From positions 99,482 to 163,481 of the IMG/VR virus record IMGVR_UViG_3300044739_000018: DNA of 64,000 nt; one strand, 5' to 3'. The notes beneath the pieces are model-generated. The model was not told the origin of the DNA. It saw nothing but the letters and a program-made list of their open reading frames with translations, and searched no databases. The DNA is from a virus. This document shows, piece by piece, positions 348 through 21,919 of this stretch (positions within the stretch are counted from its first letter, which is position 1; each line of letters starts with the position of its first letter). Position numbers and translations under genes: made by a program.

Positions 348-362
348 GTCTGAAATCTAAGT
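333..362. repeat. 13-bp tandem duplication AAGTCTGAAATCT x2 (+AAGT)
   Basis: Directly visible at the convergent junction of the hemerythrin gene and the minus-strand RNA operon. Confidence 0.9.
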
Positions 363-528
363 GGTGGGTCCACCAGGATTATCCCTTTCGCTGCTCATCC
401 ACGTTTGAGGGCTGCGCTCCACGGTTCAGCTAGCTATCTTGCCGTGGACAGCCTTGACACGCGTACTGCTGCTACTCAGTACCTGGACCTCGGAGATCAA
501 CCCGCGGTCTAGTTGAACCTACAGACCC
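362..528 (-). ncRNA. tRNA-like RNA with encoded CCA and ~100-nt structured insertion in place of the T-loop
   Basis: Acceptor GGGTCTG/TGGACCC-A-CCA, D-like arm GGTT/GACC, aberrant anticodon arm, T-stem CCAGG/CCTGG enclosing ~105 nt. Confidence 0.55.
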
Positions 529-529
529 G

Positions 530-602
530 CGCCCTCCCTCGGATTCGAACCGAGAACCTACGGCGTTAGAAACCGCTGCTCTGCCAGTTGAGCTAGGAAG
601 GC
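530..602 (-). tRNA. tRNA-Sup(CUA) amber suppressor #1
   Basis: GCCTTCC TA GCTC AACTGGCA GAGC A GCGGT TTCTAAC GCCGT AGGTT CTCGG TTCGAAT CCGAG GGAGGGC G; 7-nt loop gives anticodon CUA. Confidence 0.8.
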
Positions 603-943
603 TTGCGTAGCCGTGCGTGTTCTCGCCGGTGACAGTTCGAGCACAACACGACGCACTTCTTGATTTCTTCTTCGAGGCGCTCACGGCTGATCGACCGTCC
701 TTGGCCTCTGACCGAAAAGCTTTTCGTCGCTGGATCTACATGATGGAAGTCGAGACACACGGGATCGGCCTCGCCGCAAGCGGCACAGGGCGTTTTCTGC
801 GTCTCCACCCATGCCGCTATCTCGGCCCGCCGTGATGCGGCAGCTTGGCGGCGCTGATTCCTGTAGTCCTCGTCTTCTTGATACCTCCGATTCCTGGTCT
901 CGCGGTTGTGTTGGAGGTGGTACTCGTAATCCTTGAAGGGCAT
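593..943 (-). CDS. HNH endonuclease (phage, Zn-ribbon type)
   Basis: CAACG...LDFHHVDP..K...EIKKCVVLCSNCHRREH motif; TAG stop lies at tRNA positions 8-10. Confidence 0.85.
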   Translation of the reverse strand: MPFKDYEYHLQHNRETRNRRYQEDEDYRNQRRQAAASRRAEIAAWVETQKTPCAACGEADPVCLDFHHVDPATKSFSVRGQGRSISRERLEEEIKKCVVLCSNCHRREHARLRKPS

Positions 944-978
944 GAACTCTTATCGGATTCGATACCAACCTAATTCAG

Positions 979-1026
979 CGCCCTCTGCTGTCTCGAACAG
1001 CTTGCTGGCCTGGATACCAGGAGGGC
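979..1026 (-). ncRNA. 48-nt mini-tRNA-like RNA lacking an anticodon arm
   Basis: Acceptor GCCCTC/GAGGGC, hairpin CTGG-TAT-CCAG, T-arm GCTG-TTCGAGA-CAGC. Confidence 0.5.
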
Positions 1027-1027
1027 T

Positions 1028-1095
1028 TGGTGCCCCTGCGAGTAACGAACTCCACCGACCCTCGGGTCAGACCGGCTCTGTTGCCGGACAGGGGC
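1028..1095 (-). ncRNA. tRNA-like cloverleaf with tetraloop instead of anticodon loop, encoded CCA
   Basis: GCCCCTG/CAGGGGC-A-CCA; CCGGC/GCCGG; CTGACC-CGAG-GGTCGG; GAG-TTCGTTA-CTC. Confidence 0.6.
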
Positions 1096-1096
1096 A

Positions 1097-1165
1097 TGGT
1101 GGGAGGCGGAGACTGGGCCTGCTACCCAAACGGTACGGTCCCTCTTACCTCTGGGCCGACCTCCC
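1097..1165 (-). ncRNA. CCA-terminated RNA with acceptor-like stem, non-cloverleaf body
   Basis: GGGAGGT/GCCTCCC-A-CCA; separated from neighbours by single bases. Confidence 0.5.
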
Positions 1166-1166
1166 A

Positions 1167-1238
1167 TGGAGCGCACGGAGGGAATCGAACCCTCGCCCCC
1201 GGCCTTTAGAGGGCCTAGACCTGACCAACAGCGCGCGC
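1167..1238 (-). tRNA. tRNA-Sup(CUA) amber suppressor #2, atypical D-arm, encoded CCA
   Basis: GCGCGCG/CGTGCGC-T-CCA; GGCC-CTCTAAA-GGCC; GAGGG-TTCGATT-CCCTC. Confidence 0.75.
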
Positions 1239-1245
1239 ATTGATA

Positions 1246-1605
1246 TCACACCATGGCCTTCTCCTTGAGCGCAAGGGGGAGGTTGGCGCAAAGCTTGCTC
1301 GCCGCATCGCCAGGCTCCAGGGCCATTGCCGTTGCGGGCTTGCCCTGCCAGTCAGGCTCCTCGATCAAGCAGAACGGGATGCCCCGACGATGCGCCTCTG
1401 CGGCAAGATCGAGAAGGGCAGGCTCGTCATCGACGGCGACGAGAACCAGGAAGTTCGATTCGTTGTGCCACGCCTGCGTGGCGGTTGGGTGAGCACAGGC
1501 ATAAGAAAAAGCCGCGTGAGCGGCCTGGGCAGCCTGATCTCCAGCGCGAAGATCGGCTCGGGTGACGATGTAGAGCTTGTCCTTCTGAACCTACGTGGGC
1601 GTCAT
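1246..1605 (-). CDS. Peptidyl-tRNA hydrolase (Pth2/PTH2-like), requires read-through of in-frame TAG at codon 5
   Basis: AGGAG SD, then ATG ACG CCC ACG TAG GTT...; translates MTPT*VQKDKLYIVTRADLRAGDQAAQAAHAAFSY...AWHNESNFLVLVAVDDEPAL...EEPDWQGKPATAMALEP...LCANLPLALKEKAMV, matching the PTH2-family pattern; absent from the ORF track. Confidence 0.8.
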
Positions 1606-1643
1606 GTCTTTCGTTCTCCTATCGGGTAGTGCGTCCAGTGAGC

Positions 1644-1672
1644 ACTCTTTCACAGCCTCATCGGTTTGTCAA
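1644..1672 (-). promoter_or_regulatory. Putative sigma70/SigA promoter of the Pth2-tRNA(CUA) operon
   Basis: TTGACA-N17-AAGAGT on the minus strand; perfect -35, weak -10. Confidence 0.5.
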
Positions 1673-9114: not shown

Positions 9115-9197
9115 GGGTCGGTATGCAAACGGTGAAGCAAGCTGGCTGTAAACCAGTGACGTAAGAGACGTTGGGGGTTCGAATCCCTCCTGGCCCA
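9115..9197 (+). tRNA. tRNA-Tyr(GUA)
   Basis: GCTGG-CTGTAAA-CCAGT, long variable arm. Confidence 0.9.
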
Positions 9198-9322
9198 CAA
9201 ATCCGACGAGAACCTCGCTGTTGTGAGACAAACTGTTGTAGCAGGACCGTCCGTGAGCCGGAGGTTATAGGCCCGGACATAGAGGCGGTCTACGCGACCA
9301 GGAGGTCACTCATCGGAAGCAT

Positions 9323-9396
9323 GCTCCACTAACTCAATTGGCTAGAGTACCTGCCTCTTAAGCAGGGAGTTCAGGGTTCGAGTCCCTGGTGGAGTA
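9323..9396 (+). tRNA. tRNA-Lys(CUU)
   Basis: CCTGC-CTCTTAA-GCAGG. Confidence 0.92.
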
Positions 9397-9399
9397 CGA

Positions 9400-9470
9400 G
9401 CAGGAAGTTCCGGTTCAATTCCGGAGGCCGTGGCGCAAGCCAGGGTTTGGTGTAACGGCAGCACACCTGC
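9400..9470 (+). ncRNA. Circularly permuted tRNA-like (YrlA-like) module 1
   Basis: GCAGG, T-arm TCCGG-TTCAATT-CCGGA, acceptor closed by GCAA tetraloop, D-arm GTGT/GCAC, CCTGC. Confidence 0.6.
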
Positions 9471-9479
9471 GTTGTTCAC

Positions 9480-9553
9480 GGTCCTATAGATCAGATGGTT
9501 AGATCGCTACCCTGTCAAGGTAGAGGCCGCGGGTTCGAGTCCCGTTAGGACCG
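9480..9553 (+). tRNA. tRNA-Asp(GUC)
   Basis: CTACC-CTGTCAA-GGTAG. Confidence 0.92.
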
Positions 9554-9814
9554 CGCAAGTAATGGTGAAGCTGAACTGAAGCTCGCAGAGGGAACTGGAC
9601 TGTGAATCCAGGGCCACCAGTCTGGAACGAGCCGAAGGAATGCCCAAGCCTTGCTCCGCCAGTCGTCGGCCGACTGACATGCCTGTGATGACATATTGGG
9701 CTTCATGCCCTCGGGACCACCAGCGATAGCCGATGGGCGTCCTAAGCTGATGTGCCGAAATACCCGCCCAACTTCTTCGGGAGTTGGGATTGCGCCTTGA
9801 AGCGCAGCAGTCTA

Positions 9815-9889
9815 GTCTCGATGGTGAAATGGAGATCATTGCGGTCTACGAAACCGCCGTTAGAGGTTCGAATCCTCTTCGAGACGCCA
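9815..9889 (+). tRNA. tRNA-Arg(ACG)
   Basis: GCGGT-CTACGAA-ACCGC, CCA encoded. Confidence 0.92.
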
Positions 9890-9895
9890 CCACAC

Positions 9896-9972
9896 GTCGA
9901 TGTAGCTCAGCCGGACAGAGCGCGGGCCTCCGAAGCCCGAGGCCAGAGGTTCGAACCCTCTCATCGACGCCA
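9896..9972 (+). tRNA. tRNA-Arg(CCG)
   Basis: CGGGC-CTCCGAA-GCCCG, CCA encoded. Confidence 0.92.
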
Positions 9973-10361
9973 TGAAGATCCAAGGTTGGCTCGACTGGTT
10001 CCGCGAGCACGCTTTGCCCAGGGACACGTTCATCGAGAAGGTGACCGACCACGTGGGCAACGTCAGCCGGACCCGTGAAACCAAGATCAAGGTTCCTCGC
10101 CGTGCCCGCATGGACGAGATCGACAAGCTCCTGGCTGCGGCCAAGGGCGTGAAGCTCGATACCGAGATCATCGTTCCGGCCCATGCCGTGGCTGCGGAGG
10201 GGGCGACAACGACGATTCAGATGAATTGCGCTGACTGCAACGAACGTTGCAACGGAAGCGTGAAGACTTCCTGGCTCACCAGTCAGGCAGCAGGAGATCT
10301 AGTGAGGTGGCAGTGCGCCAAGTGCGGACTGGAGCAGTTTTGCAGTATCACGCCGCAGTAG
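9972..10361 (+). CDS. Hypothetical Zn-ribbon protein
   Basis: CADC...CAKC; ATG overlaps the tRNA CCA and the stop lies inside tRNA-Thr. Confidence 0.6.
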   Translation: MKIQGWLDWFREHALPRDTFIEKVTDHVGNVSRTRETKIKVPRRARMDEIDKLLAAAKGVKLDTEIIVPAHAVAAEGATTTIQMNCADCNERCNGSVKTSWLTSQAAGDLVRWQCAKCGLEQFCSITPQ

Positions 10362-10424
10362 CGTCAACGGTTAGCGCGCGTCCTTGGTACGGACGAAGTT
10401 CAGGTTCGATTCCTGACTGTGGCT
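10352..10424 (+). tRNA. tRNA-Thr(GGU)
   Basis: CGTCC-TTGGTAC-GGACG. Confidence 0.9.
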
Positions 10425-10557
10425 CTCGGAGTGTCGGGTACCAGTGATGGCCCGAAGCGACCTGCCCCCAAAGTACCGGTTGAGGGGACGGTTGTATCGA
10501 GCACTCCTATCCCGGGTGGTGGCGGGCTGGTAGCTCCAGCCCGCTGCTTCCCATCAC

Positions 10558-10629
10558 GTCTCTGTAGTTCAAAGGAAAGAACACGAGTTTCCTAAACTTG
10601 CGATGGGGGTTCGAGTCCTCCCAGAGACG
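10558..10629 (+). tRNA. tRNA-Arg(CCU)
   Basis: CGAGT-TTCCTAA-ACTTG. Confidence 0.88.
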
Positions 10630-10942
10630 CTCAAGCCAGTGGATGCCATCATGCCGTTGGAAGGGAACATCCGGCTGCGTAGTAGCCGTCCTGAAAGACG
10701 TTCGTGCGGGCATCGGCGGGTTCGACCCCCGTAGCTTCCACAACGAGGGAGCTTGCTGCCGGTGCAGCCCTGGCACATTGTATTTCGAGCGGATAGTGCC
10801 GATCTTTAGGTGAGCAGATCACCCCAGACCCTGGTGATTGGACTGGGGAATCTGTGCGCTATCGACACTACGAACTCAAGACGATCTTCATGGTTGCCTT
10901 TGTGGCCTTCGTAGTCATCAACCTCGTAATGGTGGTGGCTAT

Positions 10943-11353
10943 ATGAGCGGTGAAACCGAACAGCAGGTCAGTGGGTGGACAGTTGACACCCTGAATGAGC
11001 ACCTCCAGCGCATCATTGATGAGAAGCTGGCAGCTCAGGACGTGCTTATTACGGAGCGCGACCGCCGTTACGAACAACGCTTTGAGGCCCAAGAGAAGGC
11101 CATCCAGAAGGCGGAAACCGCGACCGAGAAGCGGTTCGAATCGGTCAACGAGTTCCGATCCGTGCTTTCGGACCAGACGAGGAGCTTCCTCCCTCGTGAA
11201 GAGTACAATCGTGCTCACACAGATCTGGCTAGCCGGTTGGATGAGGCGACCAAGAGTACCAACGAGAAGTTGGAACAGGCCGTGAAGACCCTTGAGAGTC
11301 GCATTGCCTCTCTCCAGCAGCAGCTCAACGCCGTCGAAGCGGTGGTGAAGTAA
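10943..11353 (+). CDS. Coiled-coil phage protein
   Basis: AQEKAIQKAETATEKRFESVNEFR heptad-rich sequence. Confidence 0.65.
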   Translation: MSGETEQQVSGWTVDTLNEHLQRIIDEKLAAQDVLITERDRRYEQRFEAQEKAIQKAETATEKRFESVNEFRSVLSDQTRSFLPREEYNRAHTDLASRLDEATKSTNEKLEQAVKTLESRIASLQQQLNAVEAVVK

Positions 11354-11571
11354 TGCCCGTCGTGACCTTGGGGACGCTGGCCGAGAAGCTGATCGCTGCC
11401 CAGACTGGCATTGACCAGATCCAGGTAGAACTCAGGAAGGTCAACGAGCAAGCTCTTGACCGGCGAGTCTCCAAGCTGGAAGACACCGTAAAGTTCTTGA
11501 GCCGCACAGTCGCCGCCACGCTCATTTCGGCCATAGGGTCGGCCATCCTCGCGGTGGTGATGTCCCGATGA
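11353..11571 (+). CDS. Small coiled-coil plus C-terminal TM protein (lysis-associated-like)
   Basis: RVSKLED followed by a hydrophobic C-terminus; translationally coupled. Confidence 0.55.
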   Translation: MPVVTLGTLAEKLIAAQTGIDQIQVELRKVNEQALDRRVSKLEDTVKFLSRTVAATLISAIGSAILAVVMSR

Positions 11572-11912
11572 ACGAAAAAATGGATGAGACAAAGGCGGAC
11601 TCCCGCTTCAATGGAGTGCGTGTCCTCGTCACCGCCATCATTGTCGGCGTATTGGCCGTGGCGGTATTCGTGTCGGCCAGCCTCCTGACGAGAGTGCCGA
11701 AGAACGCTCAGGATCTCCGAGAGCGGTGCGTGTCATCAAACCTGGCGATCCAGCAGTTCAACACCAAGTTCTCGCAGTTGGTTGACTTGTTCGACCAGTC
11801 GCTGGCAAACCCGGACCCGAACAGGCCACCGCCGTCGCCGGAGGTCCTTGCTCTTTACGCCGAGTTCAAAAAGCCCGTCCCTCTCATCAAGTGCGAGGAC
11901 GACGGCCGCTAA
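11568..11912 (+). CDS. Membrane-anchored protein (lysis-associated-like)
   Basis: N-terminal TM, two Cys; ATGA overlap. Confidence 0.55.
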   Translation: MNEKMDETKADSRFNGVRVLVTAIIVGVLAVAVFVSASLLTRVPKNAQDLRERCVSSNLAIQQFNTKFSQLVDLFDQSLANPDPNRPPPSPEVLALYAEFKKPVPLIKCEDDGR

Positions 11913-11922
11913 GTTTTCGTGA

Positions 11923-12101
11923 ACCCAAGCTCAGTAGGCAGAGTAGCCTTCAGGGGCCGGAGGTCGTGGGTGGGATTCCCACCGAGTCCATCATGAGTCG
12001 TCACTCGGGTGTAGCGCCGCCAGGCTGCCTACAGTGACGGTTCATCGTGGGGTCGTAGCTCAGTACCCAGAGCACCGTCTGGAACCTACGAAAGTGCGGG
12101 T
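11923..12101 (+). ncRNA. Circularly permuted tRNA-like (YrlA-like) module 2 with long hairpin extending the acceptor stem
   Basis: T-arm GTGGG/CCCAC, CGAGTCC pairs GGGGTCG, extension ATGAGT-CGTCACT/AGTGACG-GTTCAT, D-arm GCTC/GAGC. Confidence 0.55.
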
Positions 12102-12113
12102 AACACAACACCT

Positions 12114-12196
12114 GGAGAGATACCCAAGTGGTGAAGGGGACGGTTTGCTAAACCGTTAGGTCGAAAGGCGCGTGGGTTCGAACCCCACTCTCTCCG
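12114..12196 (+). tRNA. tRNA-Ser(GCU)
   Basis: ACGGT-TTGCTAA-ACCGT, long variable arm. Confidence 0.92.
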
Positions 12197-12273
12197 CGCT
12201 GGTGGGTATGCGGACTATAGGCGTGCATGCGCGCTTGGTCGTCCCGGCGCCGGGATGGCTGCCCACCGGATTC

Positions 12274-12543
12274 TTGAGATAGCCGGGTGACCGCGGCACG
12301 ACTTGATCGTGTCGAGGAAGGTCGGGACTCCACAGGACGAGGGAGCCAACGAGAGTTGGGCGGGCGTGAGCTTGCGGCTCTGCAACAGAGACGAGCCGGT
12401 TAAGTCCGGGTGAAACGGGCAACCCCCTGGAGCAACTTCATACAGAGGTCGCTGGTCCGGCGATAACCTCGGGTAGAAGGCTTAGATGGATGGTCACCGC
12501 GCTACATGCTGGCGTACAGAATCCCGCCTACAAGCTATCTCAG
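12274..12543 (+). ncRNA. rnpB: RNase P RNA (compact, ~270 nt)
   Basis: P1 TGAGATAGC/GCTATCTCA; CR-I GAGGAAGGTCGGGAC; CR-II/III ACAGAGA..GTGAAACG; GAGCAA; CR-IV AGATGGAT; CR-V ACAGAATCCCGCCTAC with P4 pairing intact. Confidence 0.9.
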
Positions 12544-12549
12544 TATCTC

Positions 12550-12636
12550 GGAGCGATGGCAGAGTCTGGTTGATTGCACCTGCCTTGAAAGCAGACGTGG
12601 GGTAACTCACCGGGGGTTCGAATCCCTCTCGCTCCG
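12550..12636 (+). tRNA. tRNA-Ser(UGA)
   Basis: CTGC-CTTGAAA-GCAG, long variable arm. Confidence 0.92.
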
Positions 12637-12791
12637 CTCGCCAACGTTCGTTGGCAAACCCGTACTCATTCCTAGTACCGCTACGCAATGTTAGTCCTCG
12701 TAACTATCCGCCTGGCTGACCTGCGGTTTTAACGTCCTCCCACCTGTTCAAACGTGTGGCCGGTACTAGACATGAGTACATGACTCACCTC

Positions 12792-12875
12792 GGAAGGCAT
12801 CCGAATTGGAGAGGAACCCGCCTCGAAAGCGGGCACGGTGTAACAGCCTTGTGGGTTCGAGTCCCACGCCTTCCG
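12792..12875 (+). tRNA. tRNA-Ser(CGA)
   Basis: CCCGC-CTCGAAA-GCGGG. Confidence 0.9.
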
Positions 12876-12904
12876 CTTTGACAACCCGATGTGACAGAGC
12901 AGTC

Positions 12905-12975
12905 TGTATCGTAGCTCAGTTGGATAGAGCGCCGCCCACAAGGCGGAGGTCGCAGGTTCGAGTCCTGCCGAACAC
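12905..12975 (+). pseudogene. tRNA-like gene (Val-CAC derived?) with 5-nt anticodon loop
   Basis: Intact D- and T-arms; CCGCC-CACAA-GGCGG; bulged acceptor stem. Confidence 0.6.
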
Positions 12976-13011
12976 TGGAACTCTCGAATGTGCGGGCGAG
13001 TCAATAACCTC

Positions 13012-13357
13012 GGGGCTGACAGGTTTCGACGGTGCAAGTGAAGCTAGGAGTGCGACCGGTCTTGGGCAGAGACCTAAAACGGCCTACCAAAAACAAACGA
13101 CAACGACATCGTTGCCGAGGCAGAGGCCGTCCTGGCTTCTGCTGCTCTCGCTACTGTCTGACAGTAGCTTGCGGGGAAGCCCATCCTTGAGATCCAAACG
13201 GGCATGTGACATGACTCTCAGGAAAGACTGAGTGGCGCTCCGTGAAATGCGGGCTGACAGCCGGAAAGACGGCACACTGGCCCGACAGTAAACGGGAATG
13301 GTCGTATCACAAGTAGTGAATCTGCAACGGACGTGGGTTCGAATCCCACCAGCTCCA
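13012..13357 (+). ncRNA. ssrA: tmRNA; predicted tag (A)DNDIVAEAEAVLASAALATV
   Basis: 5' GGGGCTGA..GGTTTCGAC, 3' GGTTCGAATCCCACCAGCTCCA, G3.U70 pair, tag ORF 13099-13161. Confidence 0.92.
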
Positions 13358-13358
13358 C

Positions 13359-13578
13359 GTGTATGCGCAACGAAAGGTTGGCTTAGAGGCAGCCATCCTA
13401 TAATGAGTGGGGTAACGGTCCATCTTGGCAGTAGCTGGGGTGGACCTCCGGGCAATACCGTTGGAGACAGCGAGTACGTCCGGGATCAGGTACGTGGGGA
13501 CTAGCCTGCCCATCGGTAACCGCTTTCTCCGTTCCTCGGAACCGCCCTTTGGCGTAATAGCACATCCTTGCGTGACAC
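13359..13578 (+). ncRNA. 23S rRNA GTPase-associated-centre (H43/H44, uL11 site) mimic with ~140-nt insertion
   Basis: AGGTTGGCTTAGAGGCAGCCATCCTATAATGAGT...GCGTAATAGCACA versus the rRNA pattern AGGTTGGCTTAGAAGCAGCCA..CTT.AAAGAGTGCGTAATAGCTCA; closed by GTGT..GCGCAA/TTGCGT..ACAC. Confidence 0.75.
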
Positions 13579-13582
13579 ACCT

Positions 13583-13665
13583 GGAGAGGACCCGAACGGT
13601 CAGGAGCCTCGTTGGAAGCGAGGTACGGGTGCAAGCCCTAGTGGGTTCGACCCCCACCCTCTCCG
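13583..13665 (+). tRNA. tRNA-Ser(GGA)
   Basis: CCTCG-TTGGAAG-CGAGG. Confidence 0.88.
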
Positions 13666-14028
13666 CTCCACATAGCGGGACGACAACTAATCGCGTTACA
13701 GGAAGTCGTTCTGCACGACCAAGGAGGTGAGTGAAGGTTATCAGCACCTACATCCGGTGGCATCAAGCTTCCGTTTGGAGCCTTCTCTCACACCGCAACC
13801 TGATCTGAAAGTGGTACGACCGGCCCGACAAGAGGCTACCCTCCTCAGCGTCCCGCCTCCCTGGCTCGGTGCCCGCATGCGTGCGGGCTTACCTGCGGTG
13901 TGATTCCTCAGGTGAGAGTGGTCGTGAATCCACGTGATTTGACGGTAAGCCAACGCTCGTTGCAGTGAGAACGTGGCTTCGCAGGAACAAGATGTCGGAA
14001 TGCTGAACTGGCCGTGACGGTGCAGTCG

Positions 14029-14099
14029 TTGGGATTCGTATATCGGTAGTACACCCGGCTTTGAACCGGGTGGAGTGGGTTCGACTCCCGCATCCCCCC
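14029..14099 (+). tRNA. tRNA-Gln(UUG), mismatched acceptor end
   Basis: CCCGG-CTTTGAA-CCGGG. Confidence 0.75.
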
Positions 14100-14148
14100 T
14101 TGAACGGAGACTGAAACACCTGATCCAAAGGTAACAGCGTTCCATCAT

Positions 14149-14222
14149 GCCCCCATCGTTTATGGGTAGGACATCAGCCTTTCAAGCTGATAGACAGGGT
14201 TCGAGTCCCTGTGGGGGTACCA
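14149..14222 (+). tRNA. tRNA-Glu(UUC)
   Basis: TCAGC-CTTTCAA-GCTGA, CCA encoded. Confidence 0.92.
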
Positions 14223-14223
14223 A

Positions 14224-14294
14224 GGCGCATTAGTTTAGTGGGAAAACAACTGGTTCTCAGCCAGTCGTCAGGAGTTCGATCCTCCTATGCGCTA
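14224..14294 (+). tRNA. tRNA-Glu(CUC)
   Basis: ACTGG-TTCTCAG-CCAGT. Confidence 0.88.
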
Positions 14295-14351
14295 CTCATA
14301 GCAACGGCTCCGTGGCTCCTCCATCGGTACACCCGATGAGAGGGGGTGAAC

Positions 14352-14513
14352 GTGCCCAAGTATCACAGAGTAACGGGAGCCACCCGCTGCTATGTCTGCG
14401 GCCAGCGTCTGACGCTGACCGACTATGACGACGGCGATGAGGTCATCGCTAGTCACATAGACAAGACTCACATGAGAGTCATCAAGGCTCTCATTCGTTT
14501 CGCCCGCTCCTAG
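14352..14513 (+). CDS. 53-aa C2H2-like Zn-finger microprotein
   Basis: GAGGGGGTG SD; CYVCG...HIDKTH. Confidence 0.5.
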   Translation: MPKYHRVTGATRCYVCGQRLTLTDYDDGDEVIASHIDKTHMRVIKALIRFARS

Positions 14514-14572
14514 CTGGCGGCCCGGCGACACCTGCCGTAAGTGGTGTGACGTGGGGGAGAGACCTCATCCAT

Positions 14573-14649
14573 TGCCGGGTAGCTCAGATAGGCAGAGCAG
14601 CCGCCTGTTAAGCGGAAGCGCGTGGGTTCGATCCCCACCCTGGCAGCCA
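14573..14649 (+). tRNA. tRNA-Asn(GUU)
   Basis: CCGC-CTGTTAA-GCGG, CCA encoded. Confidence 0.92.
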
Positions 14650-14650
14650 T

Positions 14651-14725
14651 GGGACGATAGCCAAGTGGTAAGGCGACGGATTGCAACCCCGTCATTCGTC
14701 GGTTCGATTCCGACTCGTCCCTCCA
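14651..14725 (+). tRNA. tRNA-Cys(GCA)
   Basis: Loop TTGCAAC, U73, CCA encoded. Confidence 0.92.
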
Positions 14726-14878
14726 TGTGATACAGAACCCGATCCTGACCTAGCAGGAGCAGTCGCCGCGGGGTCCCCCATGTATCCACAAACTGAGAGA
14801 TACTATTCAGAATGTGGATAGATGGGGTCCTCCGGTGGAGGACTGAAACTGGTGATGGTAGGGTAACTGTCTCAACTT

Positions 14879-14951
14879 GTGCGTGTAGCTCAACTGGCAG
14901 AGCACGACGTTGCCAACGTCGAGGTCGAGGGTTCGAACCCCTTCACGCACT
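14879..14951 (+). tRNA. tRNA-Gly(GCC)
   Basis: CGACG-TTGCCAA-CGTCG. Confidence 0.92.
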
Positions 14952-14956
14952 CGCAT

Positions 14957-15029
14957 GCGGGAGTGATGTCAACGGTTAGCATCTCTGCCTTCCAAGCAGA
15001 TCGTGCCGGTTCGAATCCGGTCTCCCGTT
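14957..15029 (+). tRNA. tRNA-Gly(UCC)
   Basis: TCTGC-CTTCCAA-GCAGA. Confidence 0.92.
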
Positions 15030-15030
15030 C

Positions 15031-15059
15031 TTGACGCTGGCACCGGCGTGTCATAAAAT
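15031..15059 (+). promoter_or_regulatory. SigA-type promoter
   Basis: TTGACG-N17-TAAAAT. Confidence 0.7.
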
Positions 15060-15204
15060 GGGCGTTGGCGGAGAAGCCTACGGGGCGACTCCGAGTGTAA
15101 TCCGATCAGTCGAACCTCAGCCTCACGGTGAAGGCCCACTACTTACTCAAAGCCGGAACCTAAAGGCGGGCACCGTAATCGGGTTGCCGCGCAAAGAAAG
15201 TACC

Positions 15205-15230
15205 GAGAAGGGGCCGCAAGGCCCCTTCTC
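15205..15230 (+). terminator. GC-rich hairpin, terminator-like
   Basis: GAGAAGGGGCC-GCAA-GGCCCCTTCTC, 11-bp perfect stem. Confidence 0.55.
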
Positions 15231-15234
15231 ACTA

Positions 15235-15309
15235 GCCTTCGTGATGTCAACGGCAGCATTCCTGTCTTGTAAACAGGTCGTGGCGGTTCGAATCCGTCCG
15301 GAGGCTCCA
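15235..15309 (+). tRNA. tRNA-Thr(UGU)
   Basis: CCTGT-CTTGTAA-ACAGG, CCA encoded. Confidence 0.92.
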
Positions 15310-15446
15310 AGCAGTTGTGATGAAGCAGCATGTAAGCCGCCTGGCGGTGGAAACTCGCGGTCCGAATCTCAGGCTGGCAGAAATGCCAAGGGAACGGTGG
15401 CACTGGGAGCCGTTGGGGTGTTGGAACTTCTTGAATGACTGCTCAT

Positions 15447-15521
15447 GGTTCAGTAGCTCAGACTGGTTAGAGCGTCCGGTTGAAACCCGGGAGGTCGTCC
15501 GTTCGATCCGGACCTGAACCA
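15447..15521 (+). tRNA. tRNA-Phe(GAA)
   Basis: TCCGG-TTGAAAC-CCGGG. Confidence 0.9.
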
Positions 15522-15536
15522 CGCCGATAGAGTCTC

Positions 15537-15770
15537 ATGGCTTCTATCACCATCACCATCCCCGATGCTCAGGTTCAACGAGTGTTGGACGCCTTCAGCC
15601 ATCGTTACGGCTACCAAGACCAGATTGACGGCGCACCAAACCCTCAAACGAAGGTCCAGTTCGCCAAGCAGCAGGTGGCACTCTGGATCAAGCGAGAGAC
15701 CGAGGACTACGAGCGGGCAATCCGAATCGCAGCAGCCGAGGCGGCTGCCATTGCACTCGACGCCACCTGA
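15537..15770 (+). CDS. Hypothetical phage protein
   Basis: Clean ORF, probably leaderless after a GCCGA motif. Confidence 0.65.
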   Translation: MASITITIPDAQVQRVLDAFSHRYGYQDQIDGAPNPQTKVQFAKQQVALWIKRETEDYERAIRIAAAEAAAIALDAT

Positions 15771-15784
15771 CGTAGAATCAGACC

Positions 15785-16135
15785 ATGTGTGGTGGAGGGA
15801 AGTGCAACCCCGATCCTCAGGTCGCCGCCAGCTTCCACCGCCTGGAGGAGCAGCGTCTGGCTGACATCGAGCGGTGGGGCCAGTGCGAGGAGATCAGCTA
15901 CCGCAACAAACGGTGCCACTACCCAATCGGTCACGACCGCGGGCACCATGCCGGTGACGGAATCACCTGGGCAACGGACGTTGAACATGAGGGCGGCCAG
16001 GCGGCAGAGCTGAAGAAGTTGTTCGAGACGTGCAAGACGATCATCCCCGGCATCGAGCTGCCCGCATGGGTGGAGTTCCAGGCCGACTTGTCTCACCTGG
16101 GCTTTCTGCTGGGGATCAAGAACGAGGACGCGTAA
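15785..16135 (+). CDS. Hypothetical protein
   Basis: ORF ending in TAA inside tRNA-Val. Confidence 0.55.
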   Translation: MCGGGKCNPDPQVAASFHRLEEQRLADIERWGQCEEISYRNKRCHYPIGHDRGHHAGDGITWATDVEHEGGQAAELKKLFETCKTIIPGIELPAWVEFQADLSHLGFLLGIKNEDA

Positions 16136-16197
16136 CTCAGAGGCAGAGTGCCAGGACGACACCCTGGTGGTCATTGGTTCGAATCCAATCGTGTCCA
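16126..16197 (+). tRNA. tRNA-Val(GAC), non-canonical A32/C33
   Basis: CCAGG-ACGACAC-CCTGG. Confidence 0.82.
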
Positions 16198-16415
16198 CGC
16201 AGCAAAATGCCAACTCAAGTTGAAGAGGCACCCATACCGAGAGCACATCGTCTTCATAAGACGCCCTGTGCGGATTAAGAGTTTACCAACGGTAGGCTGC
16301 TACATCATTGTGTCGATGTAGTTTGATCAGGACCCTCGGGGCAGGTAGCGCACTCGGCAGATAACCGGGGAGGCGGCCATGGTGGAACCTTGGAAACACG
16401 AGCCAAGCACTGCGG

Positions 16416-16485
16416 TGCCGTGTGATTTGGTAATCAAGGCTGGCTTATATCCAGCCCCTCTCGGGTTCGACTCCCGGCGCGGCTA
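16416..16485 (+). tRNA. tRNA-Ile(UAU), atypical
   Basis: GGCTGG-CTTATAT-CCAGCC; T-arm TCGGG-TTCGACT-CCCGG; shortened D-arm. Confidence 0.7.
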
Positions 16486-16564
16486 CGTCATGACCTACCT
16501 CCGAGAGTTCTCCACAGTGAGTGGGTAGTGTCGGCAGGAAAACTCGGCTGACTGTCGGCCACTT

Positions 16565-16639
16565 GCGTAACAAGCCAACTAGGTTGGAGGCGCTACCCTG
16601 ATAAGGTAGATATGCGAGGTTCGAATCCTCGGTTACGCA
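16565..16639 (+). tRNA. tRNA-Ile(GAU)
   Basis: CTACC-CTGATAA-GGTAG. Confidence 0.88.
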
Positions 16640-16781
16640 CTCAGAAATACGACTGATGCAGCAATAGAAACAGCGACCAGGAGGGGCCTGAAACCCCTTC
16701 GGCCTGCCGAGGTCAGCATGCGGCTCTTAACCGCCTCGCCCCTCTCTGCTGAAACTGTTGAAGGCGTATCAACTGAAGCAA

Positions 16782-16854
16782 GCCTCTCTGGCGTAATGGA
16801 TAGCGTGTCGGCCTTTTAAGCCGGTCGGTCAGGGTTCGAATCCCTGGGGGGGCA
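16782..16854 (+). tRNA. tRNA-Lys(UUU)
   Basis: TCGGC-CTTTTAA-GCCGG. Confidence 0.9.
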
Positions 16855-16862
16855 CTTTTCAT

Positions 16863-16938
16863 AGGCGGGTAGCTCAGAGGCCAGAGCAGCACCCTTACAA
16901 GGTGAAGTGCGAGGGTTCGACTCCCTCTCCGCCTACCA
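16863..16938 (+). tRNA. tRNA-Val(UAC)
   Basis: CACC-CTTACAA-GGTG, CCA encoded. Confidence 0.92.
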
Positions 16939-16939
16939 T

Positions 16940-17017
16940 GGTGGCCGTAGCTCAGTTGGTTAGAGCGCCAGGTTGTGATCCTGGATGTCGGGGGTTCGAG
17001 TCCCCTCGGTCACCCCA
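16940..17017 (+). tRNA. tRNA-His(GUG)
   Basis: G-1/C73; CCAGG-TTGTGAT-CCTGG, CCA encoded. Confidence 0.93.
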
Positions 17018-17346
17018 TGAGCACCAAAGTCAAAGAGATCACGTCGAATCCCAACGGGGACCGGCGACGGTGCCAGCTCTGCAATCCAACCCCTGACCGA
17101 ATTCCACTGGACAAGGTGTGGGCCTGGTCGCTAGAACATCCAGGAGAACCTTGGAGGCGAAGTGGCTGAGACCCTGACGGACGTTTCCCAGCACTACCGG
17201 GAGCGGGCAGAAGTCAGCATGTACTGGTGGGACGAGGACGACGAGGTTGCCATGGAGATCGTGCAGGACGCCATGAAGAACCTCATGTTCGCCTTCAAGC
17301 GGGCAGGAGTACGAGTACCGGCCCTGCACGTCACGGGCAGGAAGTA

Positions 17347-17607
17347 ATGGGCGACCCGTTCCGCTGTGGACGTTGCGACACGTGGTTCGACTACTACGAG
17401 GCCCTGGAGCGGCACATCGCGAAGGAGCATCCCAAGCCCTCGGACAAGTCGGTCCTCGCCACCATGCAGTATGAATTGAAGGAGGCGCTGCTTGAAATCC
17501 AGCGGCATCATGCCGACTTCAAGAAGGTCAGTCAGGCCCTCGACGACTACGAGGAGCATGGCGATGCGAAATTGCTTTACAAGACGGTCAGGAGCGTTGT
17601 AGGATGA
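17347..17607 (+). CDS. C2H2 zinc-finger protein
   Basis: FRCGRCDTWFDYYEALERHIAKEH. Confidence 0.65.
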   Translation: MGDPFRCGRCDTWFDYYEALERHIAKEHPKPSDKSVLATMQYELKEALLEIQRHHADFKKVSQALDDYEEHGDAKLLYKTVRSVVG

Positions 17608-17616
17608 TTCCCACGT

Positions 17617-17689
17617 TGCGGTGGGAGGGGACGGAGACCCTGTCAGGCTCATAACCTGGACTATGCGAGTTCGATTCTCGCCGCCGCTA
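17617..17689 (+). tRNA. tRNA-Met(CAU), 1:72 mismatch (initiator-like)
   Basis: TCAGG-CTCATAA-CCTGG. Confidence 0.82.
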
Positions 17690-17713
17690 CTAAGCAGTAC
17701 AGCTTAACCTCTT

Positions 17714-17789
17714 GCCGGGAGGGTGAAACGGTTTCCACGGGGGCCTCATAAGCCTCAGACATGCGGTTCGACTCCGCTTCCCGCCACCA
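17714..17789 (+). tRNA. tRNA-Met/Ile2(CAU)
   Basis: GGGGC-CTCATAA-GCCTC, CCA encoded. Confidence 0.82.
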
Positions 17790-17947
17790 TCTAAGGGACG
17801 CCTCCAAGGAGGTGAGTCCGATGTAGCAGCAACAACTAACATGCGAAGACACTCAACGGAGTGCCAGGAGTAACTCGGTAACACGGGCGCTGCTCCACAG
17901 GTCAATCGGGAGGCCAGGCCCCGCAAGTCGGGGCCGCTCCAATTCTT

Positions 17948-18023
17948 GGGGACGAAGCTCAGCAGGTTGAGCATCTGTCTGGCAGACAGAAGGTCGAGGG
18001 TTCGAATCCCTTCGTCTCCACCA
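17948..18023 (+). tRNA. tRNA-Ala(GGC)
   Basis: G3.U70; TCTGT-CTGGCAG-ACAGA, CCA encoded. Confidence 0.92.
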
Positions 18024-18025
18024 TC

Positions 18026-18265
18026 ATGGCATCAGCAACCGAAGGCAAAATCGACGTAGAGGTTACGCACGCATTCTGTATTGACCGTGCAGTCAAGACC
18101 TTGAAGTCGGTCTACAAGGCGGGTTTGAGTGCCGAGATCATCGAGCACACGCTGGCAACAGTGGACCGCTGGTTGAAGATTGCCGCAGAGATCCGAGCGG
18201 GTGACGAGCTTGCTAGCTACAAGTTCAACGCCCTGAAGAGGCAGTTGGAAGAGGAGAGTATGTAG
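18026..18265 (+). CDS. Hypothetical protein
   Basis: ORF starting 3 nt after tRNA CCA. Confidence 0.55.
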   Translation: MASATEGKIDVEVTHAFCIDRAVKTLKSVYKAGLSAEIIEHTLATVDRWLKIAAEIRAGDELASYKFNALKRQLEEESM

Positions 18266-18483
18266 TACGAACTCGGTGCGGACGTGATTCCGCCACTGCC
18301 TTCTGCCAACGCCTGGGCCGAACCGTGACGAACGGTGACTGCAAGGGAAGGTGCCGACATGGGAACTCCGGCCGGGTTACCTGTGAGCGGATAGAGGGGT
18401 CAGTGAAGAAATGACCCGATAGGGGAACGCTGTGCCGCGGAGGCGGCGGTCCCTTTCTTATCCATCCTTTATCTCCGCAACAC

Positions 18484-18556
18484 GGGCCTGTAGCTCCAAC
18501 GGTAGAGCAACTGCTTTGCAAGCAGAGGGTTGTCGGTTCGAATCCGACCTGGTCCA
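18484..18556 (+). tRNA. tRNA-Ala(UGC)
   Basis: G3.U70; CTGC-TTTGCAA-GCAG. Confidence 0.9.
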
Positions 18557-18561
18557 CGCAA

Positions 18562-18644
18562 GGGCGAGTGGCGTAATTGGCAGCCGCGCTGGTCTTAGGA
18601 ACCAGTGTCTATATGACGTGCGGGTTCGAGTCCCGCCTTGCCCA
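18562..18644 (+). tRNA. tRNA-Leu(UAG)
   Basis: CTGGT-CTTAGGA-ACCAG, long variable arm. Confidence 0.92.
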
Positions 18645-18645
18645 C

Positions 18646-18927
18646 GTGACGGCACGAGCAGGAACAGCAAGGAAGTCCACCGGAGCGGTAGCCAAGGGAG
18701 CCACTCGGCGGATATCAGTAGCTCGCACGGGAGGGTATCCGTGTGGCTTCTGTGGTGGCGGGAAACCGAACGGGCAGCGGTACTGTGCCCAGTGCATTGA
18801 CGAGTATGCCGACTTCATGGAAGTCACTGGCATCGACGAGTCACCGCACAGTGCCGACCTCTACAAGCTCTATCGCTTCATGTCTATGAAGGATGAAGTC
18901 GAGCGCATCAAAGAGAAGTACAGCTAG
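18646..18927 (+). CDS. Hypothetical Zn-binding protein
   Basis: CGFC...YCAQC. Confidence 0.55.
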   Translation: MTARAGTARKSTGAVAKGATRRISVARTGGYPCGFCGGGKPNGQRYCAQCIDEYADFMEVTGIDESPHSADLYKLYRFMSMKDEVERIKEKYS

Positions 18928-19004
18928 CTGACGTAGCCCAATCCGGCAGAGGCACATGGTTCAGAACCATGCCAGTGGAGGTTCGAGTCCTCTCGTCAGC
19001 ACCA
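18927..19004 (+). tRNA. tRNA-Leu(CAG), short variable loop
   Basis: CATGG-TTCAGAA-CCATG, CCA encoded. Confidence 0.88.
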
Positions 19005-19005
19005 A

Positions 19006-19081
19006 GCCTCTGTAGTGCTAATGGTTATCACGTCGGTTTCGTAAACCGAAGGACTCAGTTCGACTCTGAGCAGAGGCTCCA
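19006..19081 (+). tRNA. tRNA-Thr(CGU)
   Basis: TCGGT-TTCGTAA-ACCGA, CCA encoded. Confidence 0.9.
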
Positions 19082-19082
19082 C

Positions 19083-19165
19083 GCGAACGTGGCGGAATGG
19101 TATACGCGCTAGGTCGAGAGCCTAGTGCCCGCAAGGGATTGAGGGTTCGACTCCCTCCGTTCGCA
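19083..19165 (+). tRNA. tRNA-Leu(GAG), C33
   Basis: CTAGG-TCGAGAG-CCTAG, long variable arm. Confidence 0.88.
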
Positions 19166-19172
19166 CAAATCG

Positions 19173-21918: not shown

Positions 21919-21919
21919 C

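What the first reader, a model, noticed from the sequence alone, without database searches (positions are those of the whole stretch)
362..1672. Amber-gated peptidyl-tRNA hydrolase operon carrying its own suppressor tRNAs
Seen: on the minus strand a TTGACA promoter and an AGGAG SD precede ATG-ACG-CCC-ACG-TAG (1605-1591). The frame then continues for 114 more codons into a PTH2-family-like protein (KLYIVTRADL..G.QAAQAAHA...EEPD...TAMAL..LCANLPL), with no in-frame ATG/GTG/TTG ahead of the conserved motifs. Seven nt after its TGA begins a tRNA with anticodon CUA, then three tRNA-like RNAs, an HNH gene, a second tRNA(CUA) and another tRNA-like RNA. Established: Pth enzymes recycle dropped-off peptidyl-tRNA and N-acylated aminoacyl-tRNA, short minigenes promote drop-off, and RF1 reads UAG. 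Inference: this is a translational switch. Full-length Pth would be made only when the co-transcribed suppressors are matured and charged, or when RF1 is limiting; otherwise the MTPT minigene is made. It could act as a sensor or timer of translation stress, or counter tRNA-targeting defences. Caveat: the usual Pth2 GK-x-AAQ lysine is Asp here, so catalysis is unproven.
Basis: partly seen in the sequence, partly recalled or inferred. Interest (0 to 1): 0.92.

Follow-up and report, generated by a model that had tools for sequence, protein, structure and literature searches.

The report
Amber-gated phage Pth2 gene with suppressor tRNAs
A 163-kb phage with the normal genetic code keeps a UAG stop as the fifth codon of a small tRNA-hydrolase-like gene and carries its own UAG-reading tRNAs just downstream; dozens of distant phages, some lab-grown, share this pairing, so the enzyme is probably made only when those tRNAs override the stop.

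Summary
On the minus strand, AGGAG and ATG-ACG-CCC-ACG-TAG (1605-1591) run in frame into 114 codons of a Pth2-fold protein. It matches PF01981 (E 1.3e-11), its model has pLDDT 95, and TM is 0.72-0.76 to archaeal Pth2. No ATG, GTG or TTG follows the TAG before the conserved core.

The TAG is neither an error nor decay. Forty distinct start contexts in pth2 relatives (GC 29-69%) show a start codon, 0-4 sense codons (11 in one locus), then an in-frame TAG. They include Mycobacterium phages Catera, IkeLoa and Myrna.
- 34 of 36 such loci with enough flanking DNA carry a tRNA-CUA nearby, against 3 of 30 loci with an ordinary start.
- One relative has TAA plus a tRNA-UUA.
- The base after the gating TAG is a purine in 39 of 40 contexts, against 8 of 33 at this phage's TAG terminators.

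This phage is not recoded. TAG ends about 15% of its genes, and I found no other interrupted gene.

Best reading: translation of pth2 depends on the phage's suppressor tRNAs. Why it is gated is unknown. The family also lacks the canonical Pth2 lysine.

The scan has noted this pairing before on other DNA. I found no paper describing it.

The parts
1644..1672 (-). Promoter-like TTGACA (1672-1667), 17-nt spacer, TGn-AAGAGT (1652-1644)
   Evidence: Read. The same layout is in relative L002. It was not called by the consensus scan, so it is weak.
1616..1620 (-). Shine-Dalgarno AGGAG, 10 nt before the ATG
   Evidence: Conserved as (A)AGGAG plus 10-11 nt plus ATG in L002 and L003. It would be 22 nt from the TAG, too far to serve a start after it.
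1594..1605 (-). Four-codon leader ATG ACG CCC ACG (M-T-P-T)
   Evidence: The same peptide with synonymous codons occurs in L003 (ATG ACC CCC ACG) and in distant L010 (ATG ACT CCC ACC). Thr is the last sense codon in 16 of 40 contexts.
1591..1593 (-). In-frame gating amber codon TAG, followed by G
   Evidence: Conserved in 40 distinct start contexts among relatives. The +4 base is a purine in 39 of 40.
1246..1590 (-). Pth2-like body, 114 codons plus TGA
   Evidence: PF01981 E 1.3e-11. phrog_1866 E 2.6e-20. PDB profile hits 2zv3, 1wn2, 1q7s. AF2 pLDDT 95.1. Foldseek TM 0.72-0.76 to archaeal Pth2 and Bit1.
1167..1238 (-). Atypical tRNA-CUA: short D-arm, loop CUCUAAA, encoded CCA
   Evidence: ARAGORN. 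Rfam tRNA 27.5 bits, below the 29-bit cut-off. About 90% identical to L003, with paired changes in the acceptor stem. Vienna prefers an alternative 6-bp stem, so decoding is not certain.
972..1166 (-). Three head-to-tail tRNA-like RNAs without usable anticodon loops
   Evidence: Folds: z -1.2, -4.2 and -2.5. The first is nearly identical in L003. Not found by ARAGORN or Rfam. Function unknown.
593..943 (-). HNH endonuclease gene, probably a mobile insertion in the tRNA array
   Evidence: phrog_3106 E 1.5e-27. Absent from the homologous interval of L003. Its last 10 nt, including its TAG stop, overlap the next tRNA.
529..602 (-). Canonical tRNA-CUA (loop UUCUAAC, G73, no encoded CCA)
   Evidence: ARAGORN. 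Rfam tRNA 61 bits. Clean cloverleaf.
362..375 (-). Weak terminator-like hairpin at the end of the unit
   Evidence: 5-bp stem with a poor T tract. Two such sites were found in the region, against 1.1 expected by chance.

Best explanation
This is a suppressor-dependent (amber-gated) gene.

Proposed mechanism:
- Ribosomes start at the SD-led ATG and make M-T-P-T.
- They then meet UAG with peptidyl-tRNA(Thr) in the P site.
- If RF1 wins, only a tetrapeptide is released.
- If a charged phage tRNA-CUA wins, one residue is inserted and the 119-residue Pth2-fold protein is made. Two tRNA-CUA genes lie 7 nt and about 640 nt downstream on the same strand.

The amount of Pth2-like protein therefore follows the ratio of active phage suppressor tRNA to RF1.

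Shown here: the layout, its deep conservation, its tight linkage to suppressor tRNA genes, the match between stop type and anticodon in one TAA case, and the Pth2 fold.

Inferred: that read-through happens, that the tRNAs are expressed and charged, and that the stop sits at codons 2-5 so that failure costs only a tiny peptide and RF1 competes poorly on a very short nascent chain.

Most likely purpose (inference, about one chance in three): the protein services the phage's non-standard tRNAs, for example by recycling peptidyl- or N-acyl-aminoacyl-tRNA made by or on them. The early UAG would then tie its dose to suppressor activity. The logic resembles the in-frame UGA of prfB, but without a frameshift.
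For: 1. Start and frame. The SD is 10 nt from the ATG. No canonical start lies between the TAG and the conserved core.

2. Conservation.
- L002 (81% identity) and L003 (73-74%) carry ATG ACx CCC ACG TAG. Their products had been auto-called as truncated 76-78-aa proteins.
- More distant loci carry ATG ACT TAG, ATG ACG TAG, ATG TCC TAG and ATG TAG GTG.
- In the survey, the nearest in-frame start lies 1 codon before the TAG in 12 of 40 contexts, 2 in 16, 3 in 3, 4 in 6, 5 in 2 and 12 in 1.
- 26 of 40 contexts have no canonical start before the conserved Tyr.

3. Linkage. 34 of 36 early-TAG loci with at least 400 nt downstream have a tRNA-CUA, against 3 of 30 ordinary-start loci. Fisher p is 6e-13, not corrected for phylogeny.

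4. Covariation. L067 has ATG ACG TAA with a tRNA-UUA (58.5 bits) and no tRNA-CUA.

5. Phylogeny. The window lies in a well-supported clade of 24 rows, all with the early TAG. The trait needs 6 changes on the tree, against 27.6 when labels are shuffled.

6. Context. The +4 base is G in 25, A in 14 and T in 1 of the gating TAGs. It is a purine after only 8 of this phage's 33 TAG terminators (p 1e-11).

7. The leader is translated. Thr before the TAG is kept through synonymous codons: ACC 9, ACG 6, ACT 1. M-T-P-T recurs in L010 with different codons.

8. Cultured phages. Catera and IkeLoa have ATG TAG GTG and Myrna has GTG TAG GTG. A -10-like hexamer lies 6-7 nt upstream, so these mRNAs look leaderless. 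Each has a tRNA-CUA 130-310 nt downstream.

9. Not general recoding. TAG ends 33 of 215 crude genes and no other TAG-interrupted gene was found.
Against: - Nothing is experimental. Expression, processing, charging and the inserted amino acid are unknown, and the tRNA-CUA resembles none of the phage's other tRNAs closely.
- TAG still ends about 15% of the phage's genes, and presumably many host genes, so a strong suppressor should be costly.
- In 14 of 40 contexts a canonical start lies between the TAG and the core, and in 7 it is the very next codon. Read-through is not strictly required there.
- The codon after the TAG is GTN or ATN in 26 of 40 contexts. These could be weak or vestigial start codons used for re-initiation.
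- L100 has an early TAG but no tRNA in 1.5 kb downstream. L039 shows only a four-base 'ccta' tRNA nt downstream. L047, L098 and L099 have suppressor tRNAs beside an ordinary-start pth2.
- The first tRNA-CUA of the window scores below Rfam's cut-off and has a competing fold.
- The canonical catalytic lysine is missing in the whole phage family, so 'hydrolase' is unproven.
- The linkage statistics count related loci as independent.
Confidence: 0.72

Rival explanations
1. Termination followed by re-initiation. The short ORF is only a landing pad. After RF1 releases the tiny peptide, the ribosome restarts at the adjacent codon (GTG, ATG, ATT, ATA, or GTT here). Pth2 would then be made without any suppressor, and the neighbouring tRNA-CUA genes would serve another purpose.
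For: The codon after the TAG is GTN or ATN in 26 of 40 contexts and a canonical start in 7. Annotators of cluster C phages chose the GTG after the TAG as the start.
Against: - In the window the next codon is GTT, which differs from AUG at two positions, and GTA or GTT occurs in 10 contexts.
- This model does not explain the near-exclusive linkage to tRNA-CUA (34 of 36 against 3 of 30), or the TAA with tRNA-UUA case.
- It does not explain why the stop is TAG in 40 contexts and never TGA with a start codon after it. TGA is the commonest stop in this phage.
Confidence: 0.12
2. A leaky attenuator that uses host decoding. The early UAG only turns translation of a gene on a heavily transcribed tRNA precursor down to a trickle. 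Read-through would come from near-cognate host tRNAs, and the phage tRNA-CUA would be incidental or a decoy.
For: pth2 sits inside tRNA arrays that are likely to be strongly transcribed. From general knowledge, termination on very short nascent chains is inefficient.
Against: A weak SD or a rare start codon would do the same job. This model does not predict the tRNA-CUA linkage or the TAA/UUA covariation. Ordinary-start pth2 genes also sit in tRNA arrays without any stop.
Confidence: 0.08
3. Artefact, pseudogene or genome-wide recoding. Either the TAG is an assembly error or a recent nonsense mutation, or the phage reads TAG as sense everywhere (code 15).
For: The window alone cannot exclude a base-call error. 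The phage carries two tRNA-CUA genes, as recoded phages do.
Against: The TAG is present in independent assemblies and in cultured, finished phage genomes. The coding sequence shows conservation, not decay. TAG terminates about 15% of genes and no other gene is interrupted.
Confidence: 0.02

Closest known systems
Stop-codon-recoded phages with phage-encoded suppressor tRNAs (TAG read as Gln, 'code 15'; bioRxiv 10.1101/2021.08.26.457843; PMC9523058)
   Same: A phage-encoded tRNA-CUA reads in-frame TAG in phage genes. Translation of those genes depends on a phage product, which was proposed as a regulatory device.
   Different: There, many late and lysis genes carry TAG at many positions, and TAG is largely given up as a stop. 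Here the code is standard: TAG ends about 15% of genes, and a single small gene carries one TAG, always within the first few codons and next to the tRNA. That preprint contains no occurrence of the word 'hydrolase'.
prfB (RF2) autoregulation through an early in-frame UGA (from general knowledge)
   Same: An early in-frame stop makes the yield of full-length product depend on the balance between termination and an alternative decoding event at that stop.
   Different: prfB escapes by a +1 frameshift and its product is the release factor that reads the stop, which closes a proven feedback loop. Here escape is in-frame suppression by a separate tRNA gene. Whether the product feeds back on suppression is unknown.
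Archaeal and eukaryotic peptidyl-tRNA hydrolase 2 (PF01981; PDB 2zv3, 1wn2, 1xty, 3erj; human Bit1 1q7s)
   Same: Same fold (TM 0.72-0.76) and a sequence-profile match. The conserved R-x-D-L...G-x-x-A-A-Q-x-x-H-A block and an acidic residue before the last strands are present.
   Different: The Lys after the conserved Gly is L, D or Y in the phage family. From memory, this is K18 of the Sulfolobus enzyme and was reported as catalytic. The invariant E-P-D replaces D-A-G. No activity has been shown for any phage member that I could find.
Orphan suppressor tRNAs of standard-code jumbo phages (Xanthomonas phage XacN1, PMC5852040)
   Same: A standard-code phage with two tRNA-CUA genes and a large tRNA set.
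   Different: The authors read through 18 amber stops and found no target gene. XacN1's Pth2-like domain is the C-terminal part of a 279-aa ORF with no early TAG. Here a conserved target of the suppressor is identified.
Lambda bar-type minigenes (from general knowledge)
   Same: An SD-led ORF of a few codons ends in a stop, and the subject is peptidyl-tRNA drop-off and Pth.
   Different: bar minigenes stand alone and are harmful when Pth is limiting. Here the mini-ORF is in frame with, and fused to, a Pth2-like gene. No drop-off effect was tested.

Membership tests
Pth2 (PF01981) | Match to the family HMM above the curated cut-off | tested here: met
   E 1.3e-11, 45.2 bits against a cut-off of 23, covering residues 10-101 of the read-through product. 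PDB profile hits to 2zv3, 1wn2, 1q7s, 1rzw and 1xty.
Pth2 (PF01981) | Pth2 alpha/beta fold | tested here: met
   AF2 model with pLDDT 95.1 and pTM 0.88. The top Foldseek hits are all Pth2 or Bit1, with TM 0.69-0.76.
Pth2 (PF01981) | Conserved Lys of the G-K-x-A-A-Q motif (reported catalytic in Sulfolobus Pth2; from memory) | tested here: not met
   The aligned residue is Asp in the window. It is L in 67, D in 10 and Y in 4 of the 81 family sequences where the motif could be matched, and never K.
Pth2 (PF01981) | Conserved acidic residue of the D-A-G segment | tested here: inconclusive
   The invariant E78-P79-D80 aligns over this segment. Which residue is equivalent cannot be fixed from sequence alone.
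Pth2 (PF01981) | Hydrolysis of peptidyl- or N-acyl-aminoacyl-tRNA | not testable with these tools
   Needs an enzyme assay or complementation of pth(ts).
Amber suppressor tRNA | tRNA cloverleaf with anticodon CUA, U33 and a purine at 37 | tested here: met
   529-602(-): 61 bits, loop UUCUAAC, clean cloverleaf. 1167-1238(-): loop CUCUAAA but 27.5 bits, below the 29-bit cut-off, with a short D-arm and a competing fold, so it is borderline.
Amber suppressor tRNA | Expressed, aminoacylated and active at UAG on the ribosome | not testable with these tools
   No close match to the phage's other tRNAs (at most 73% identity). The amino acid it would carry is unknown.
Genome-wide TAG recoding (code 15) | Many genes with in-frame TAG, and TAG depleted as a terminator | tested here: not met
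   No excess of TAG between coding stretches. No other early-TAG gene. The candidates inspected are spurious frames or adjacent genes. TAG ends 33 of 215 genes.
prfB-like autoregulatory stop | Early in-frame stop whose bypass sets the yield of the product | tested here: met
   TAG is codon 5 here and codons 2-6 in 39 of 40 contexts among relatives. Bypass itself is inferred.
prfB-like autoregulatory stop | The product acts back on decoding of that stop (closed loop) | not testable with these tools
   There is no evidence either way.

The most novel reading that the evidence does not exclude
The cassette would be a self-contained read-through homeostat. The Pth2-like protein, which has lost the canonical lysine, would act specifically on the phage's own suppressor and other non-standard tRNAs by deacylating them or freeing them from peptidyl or N-acyl forms. 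The UAG at codons 2-5 of its gene would measure suppressor activity against RF1, closing a feedback loop. This would let a standard-code phage run a stop-codon suppressor at a tolerable level. It would be a tRNA-based counterpart of RF2 autoregulation, conserved from mycobacteriophages to 400-700-kb phages. The sister clade of ordinary-start pth2 genes, linked to A34 tRNAs, would be a second form of the same partnership.
Probability: 0.2. Interest if true: 0.92.

Novelty: new variant of a known kind. Interest (0 to 1): 0.8.

Why it matters
- It gives a concrete, conserved client for the 'orphan' suppressor tRNAs that standard-code phages carry. The XacN1 authors looked for such targets and found none.
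- Programmed stop-codon read-through in phages would not need whole-genome recoding. It can exist as a one-gene, one-tRNA module.
- Routine annotation mis-handles these genes. The closest relatives were called as truncated 76-78-aa proteins. In cluster C mycobacteriophages the start is placed after the TAG, and the tRNA-CUA is labelled Arg, Ser or Pyl.
- Cluster C phages grow on Mycobacterium smegmatis and can be engineered, so the idea is directly testable.
- If the gate works as read, it is a compact natural switch driven by a tRNA. It may also be an intermediate on the road to stop-codon reassignment.

Tried and rejected
- Sequencing error or pseudogene: rejected. The TAG is conserved in independent assemblies and in cultured phages.
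- Genome-wide TAG recoding: rejected. The first stop-to-stop ORF comparison was uninformative in this 60% GC genome.
- TAG as a start codon read by an initiator-like tRNA-CUA: rejected. The SD spacing fits the ATG. Neither tRNA has three G-C pairs next to the anticodon loop or a 1-72 mismatch.
- Amino-acid identity of the suppressor, by comparison with the phage's 40 other tRNAs: no clear parent, best 73%. The phage lacks a tRNA-Trp, but that alone does not make the suppressor Trp-derived.
- An opal version in L014 (in-frame TGA before pth2): rejected. Its complete 191-kb genome has 37 tRNAs and none is UCA.
- XacN1 as a cultured test case: its Pth2-like domain is fused in a 279-aa ORF without an early TAG. 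Lak-A1 has an ordinary start with a tRNA-UUA upstream.
- Megablast of the window against the phage collection found nothing. A single-protein scan of IMG/VR found nothing. The genome-contig scan failed for lack of a conserved stretch.
- Test for back-up stops after TAG-ending genes: median 14 codons to the next in-frame stop, against 27 for TGA-ending and 36.5 for TAA-ending genes, p 0.11, not significant.
- Literature searches linking phage Pth2 with suppressor tRNAs found nothing relevant.
Full report
**What is in the window**

The window is bases 99482-163481 of a complete 163,481-bp IMG/VR virus record with direct terminal repeats. The genome is 60% GC and has 42 tRNA genes plus a tmRNA. 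It has no tRNA-Trp.

On the minus strand the following elements lie in order:
- TTGACA at 1672-1667 and AGGAG at 1620-1616, then 10 nt.
- ATG ACG CCC ACG TAG at 1605-1591.
- 114 sense codons ending at TGA 1248-1246.

After the TAG, the first ATG, GTG or TTG in frame is TTG at 1368. That is far inside the protein.

**The protein**

- The read-through product matches PF01981 (PTH2) at E 1.3e-11 and phrog_1866 at 2.6e-20.
- A family profile finds archaeal Pth2 and human Bit1 structures in the PDB.
- An AlphaFold model built on 74 relatives has pLDDT 95. It superposes on those structures with TM 0.72-0.76.
- The residue aligned with the canonical G-K of the GK-x-AAQ motif is Asp here. It is L, D or Y, never K, in the 81 of 83 family proteins where the motif could be matched.
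- So the fold is Pth2, but catalysis is unproven.

**Downstream of pth2, same strand**

- An atypical tRNA-CUA at 1167-1238: short D-arm, encoded CCA, 27.5 bits.
- Three tRNA-shaped RNAs without usable anticodon loops at 972-1166.
- An HNH endonuclease gene at 593-943.
- A canonical tRNA-CUA at 529-602, 61 bits.
- The stretch after that tRNA (362-530) shows no structure.

**The TAG is conserved**

The three closest database proteins (87, 82 and 71% identical over the part they cover) had all been called as truncated products of 76-78 aa.

Where DNA was available, the missing N-terminus lies behind the same leader:
- L002 has ATG ACG CCC ACG TAG.
- L003 has ATG ACC CCC ACG TAG, with a synonymous change. 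A homologous odd tRNA and a canonical tRNA-CUA follow.

More distant relatives show the same design with different leaders:
- ATG ACT TAG in L004, behind a leaderless-type promoter.
- ATG ACG TAG in low-GC L006, overlapping the upstream gene's stop as ATGA.
- ATG TCC TAG ATG in L007.
- ATG TAG GTG in Mycobacterium phage Catera.

Each has a tRNA-CUA nearby.

**Survey**

I collected 22 IMG/VR loci, 80 metagenome loci and 10 further IMG/VR loci with family alignments. I classified their starts by script.

Forty distinct contexts have a start codon, then 0-4 sense codons (11 in one case), then TAG. The TAG lies 3-20 codons before the conserved K-L-Y.
- In 26 of the 40 there is no canonical start after the TAG.
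- Of the early-TAG loci with at least 400 nt downstream, 34 of 36 carry a tRNA-CUA, usually 60-900 nt downstream and often two in tandem.
- Of loci whose pth2 has an ordinary ATG, 3 of 30 carry one. Fisher p is 6e-13, uncorrected for relatedness.
- L067 has ATG ACG TAA with a tRNA-UUA (58.5 bits) and no tRNA-CUA.

On a maximum-likelihood tree of 83 proteins:
- The window sits in a supported clade of 24 rows, all with the early TAG, together with cluster C mycobacteriophages.
- Many other deep branches also carry the early stop.
- A nested clade of 22 rows lacks it.
- The trait needs 6 changes, against 27.6 with shuffled labels.

Cultured phages carry it too:
- Catera and IkeLoa (cluster C1) have ATG TAG GTG.
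- Myrna (C2) has GTG TAG GTG.
- In each, a -10-like hexamer lies 6-7 nt upstream, so the transcripts look leaderless.
- Their tRNA-CUA is annotated variously as Arg, Ser or Pyl.

**Signs that the leader is translated and the stop is meant to be read through**

- The last sense codon is Thr in 16 of 40 contexts, through three synonymous codons. M-T-P-T recurs in distant L010 with other codons.
- The base after the gating TAG is G in 25, A in 14 and T in 1.
- After the 33 TAG terminators of this phage's 215 crudely called genes, the next base is a purine only 8 times (p 1e-11).
- From general knowledge, a 3' purine favours amber suppression in E. coli.

**Not general recoding**

- TAG ends about 15% of genes.
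- TAG is not enriched between coding stretches.
- No other gene has a start, a few codons and a TAG with coding sequence after it.
- The best candidates are antisense frames or neighbouring genes with their own starts.

pth2 is the only evident client of the suppressors in this phage.

**Interpretation**

The best reading is that full-length Pth2-like protein is made only when a charged phage tRNA-CUA beats RF1 at codon 5. I put this at about 0.7.

The purpose is open. The logic resembles prfB, where an early stop meters a factor tied to decoding of that stop.

The family as a whole keeps company with unusual tRNAs:
- Suppressors accompany the early-stop genes.
- tRNAs with A34 anticodons (AAU, AAA, AAC, AAG, AGU) occur in 23 of 39 ordinary-start loci, against 1 of 47 early-stop loci.
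- L047 has two tRNA-UCA beside an ungated pth2.

This suggests that the protein services non-standard phage tRNAs. The UAG would then couple its dose to suppressor activity.

**Weak points**

- There is no experimental evidence.
- Suppression at ordinary TAG stops should carry a cost.
- In 14 of 40 contexts a canonical start lies after the TAG.
- The next codon is GTN or ATN in 26 of 40 contexts. That keeps a termination and re-initiation model alive.
- The window's first tRNA-CUA has a borderline score.
- There are a few exceptions to the linkage: L100, L039, L098 and L099.

**Novelty**

Full-text searches found no paper linking phage Pth2 genes with suppressor tRNAs. The XacN1 paper states that targets of its two tRNA-CUA genes could not be found (PMC5852040).

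This scan has already noted the same pairing in many other genomes: 139 notes in at least 87 genomes. My tests agree with those notes. They add the TAA/UUA covariation, the +4 context contrast, the leader statistics and the A34-tRNA sister group.

My folds agree for two of the three. Alignment with L003 shows that the odd tRNA-CUA and the first mimic are about 90% identical, and the HNH gene is absent from that interval of L003.

Noticed in passing
Loci L014-L018, L023, L025, L027, L028, L053, L055, L063, L071-L073, L076, L083, L085, L086, L089, L092, L101, L103, L104, L110, L148, L150-L154: pth2 genes with an ordinary start sit within a few hundred nt of tRNAs that ARAGORN reads with A34 anticodons: AAU 16 times, AAA 9, AAC 3, AAG 2, AGU 1. 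Position 37 is an unusual G, T or C. Such tRNAs occur in 23 of 39 ordinary-start loci against 1 of 47 early-stop loci. The phage Pth2 family therefore seems tied to non-standard tRNAs in general.
   Followed up: partly
L067:2989-2997 and L067:5312-5386: Ochre version of the gate: ATG ACG TAA in frame before pth2, an SD 8 nt upstream, and a tRNA-UUA (Rfam 58.5 bits) 2 kb downstream. No tRNA-CUA lies within 3 kb on either side.
   Followed up: yes
L047:1026-1530: A pth2 with an ordinary ATG start is followed at +17 and +96 by two tRNAs read as UCA (opal suppressors; Rfam 48.7 and 61.5 bits). Both have a mismatched 31-39 pair. This is suppressor linkage without a gate.
   Followed up: partly
L014:2970-3010; L151 and L153 upstream of the match: pth2 is preceded by an in-frame TGA with no canonical start after it, yet the complete 191-kb phage has no tRNA-UCA among 37 tRNAs. 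Both lineages have CCC ATT G just after the TGA, and L014 has a 5-codon out-of-frame ORF with a good SD. The start mechanism is unexplained.
   Followed up: partly
window 972-1166 (-): Three head-to-tail tRNA-shaped RNAs without anticodon loops, two of them ending in ACCA. The first is nearly identical in L003. Similar ACCA-ended tRNA-like units lie between pth2 and the tRNA-CUA in Catera (L008:3360-3570).
   Followed up: partly
window 593-602 (-): The HNH ORF ends inside the canonical tRNA-CUA gene. Its TAG stop is the UAG of the tRNA's D-stem. The HNH gene is absent from the homologous interval of L003, so it looks like a mobile insertion into the tRNA array.
   Followed up: partly
whole genome G000 (window 9115-22353 holds most tRNAs): The phage encodes tRNAs for 19 amino acids plus a tmRNA, but no tRNA-Trp. 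Its only CUA-neighbour gap is CCA. Whether a suppressor derives from tRNA-Trp could not be shown.
   Followed up: partly
whole genome G000: At the phage's TAG terminators the next base is G in only 2 of 33. It is G in 41 of 122 after TGA and 16 of 60 after TAA. This looks like avoidance of a read-through-prone context.
   Followed up: partly
L008 (Catera), L155 (Myrna), L156 (IkeLoa): Public annotations place the pth start at the GTG after the TAG. They label the adjacent tRNA-CUA as tRNA-Arg, tRNA-Ser or tRNA-Pyl respectively. The start-stop ATG/GTG-TAG at the likely transcript 5' end is not annotated.
   Followed up: yes
tRNA-CUA genes of the surveyed loci (listing): Two anticodon-loop types dominate, UUCUAAC (11) and CUCUAAA (11). 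Several loci, including the window, carry one of each in tandem. Several have C at position 33.
   Followed up: partly
L114 (Prevotella phage Lak-A1) 1751-1823 and about 2440-2800: The Pth2-like gene of a TAG-recoded Lak megaphage has an ordinary ATG start and lies about 700 nt downstream of a tRNA-UUA.
   Followed up: no
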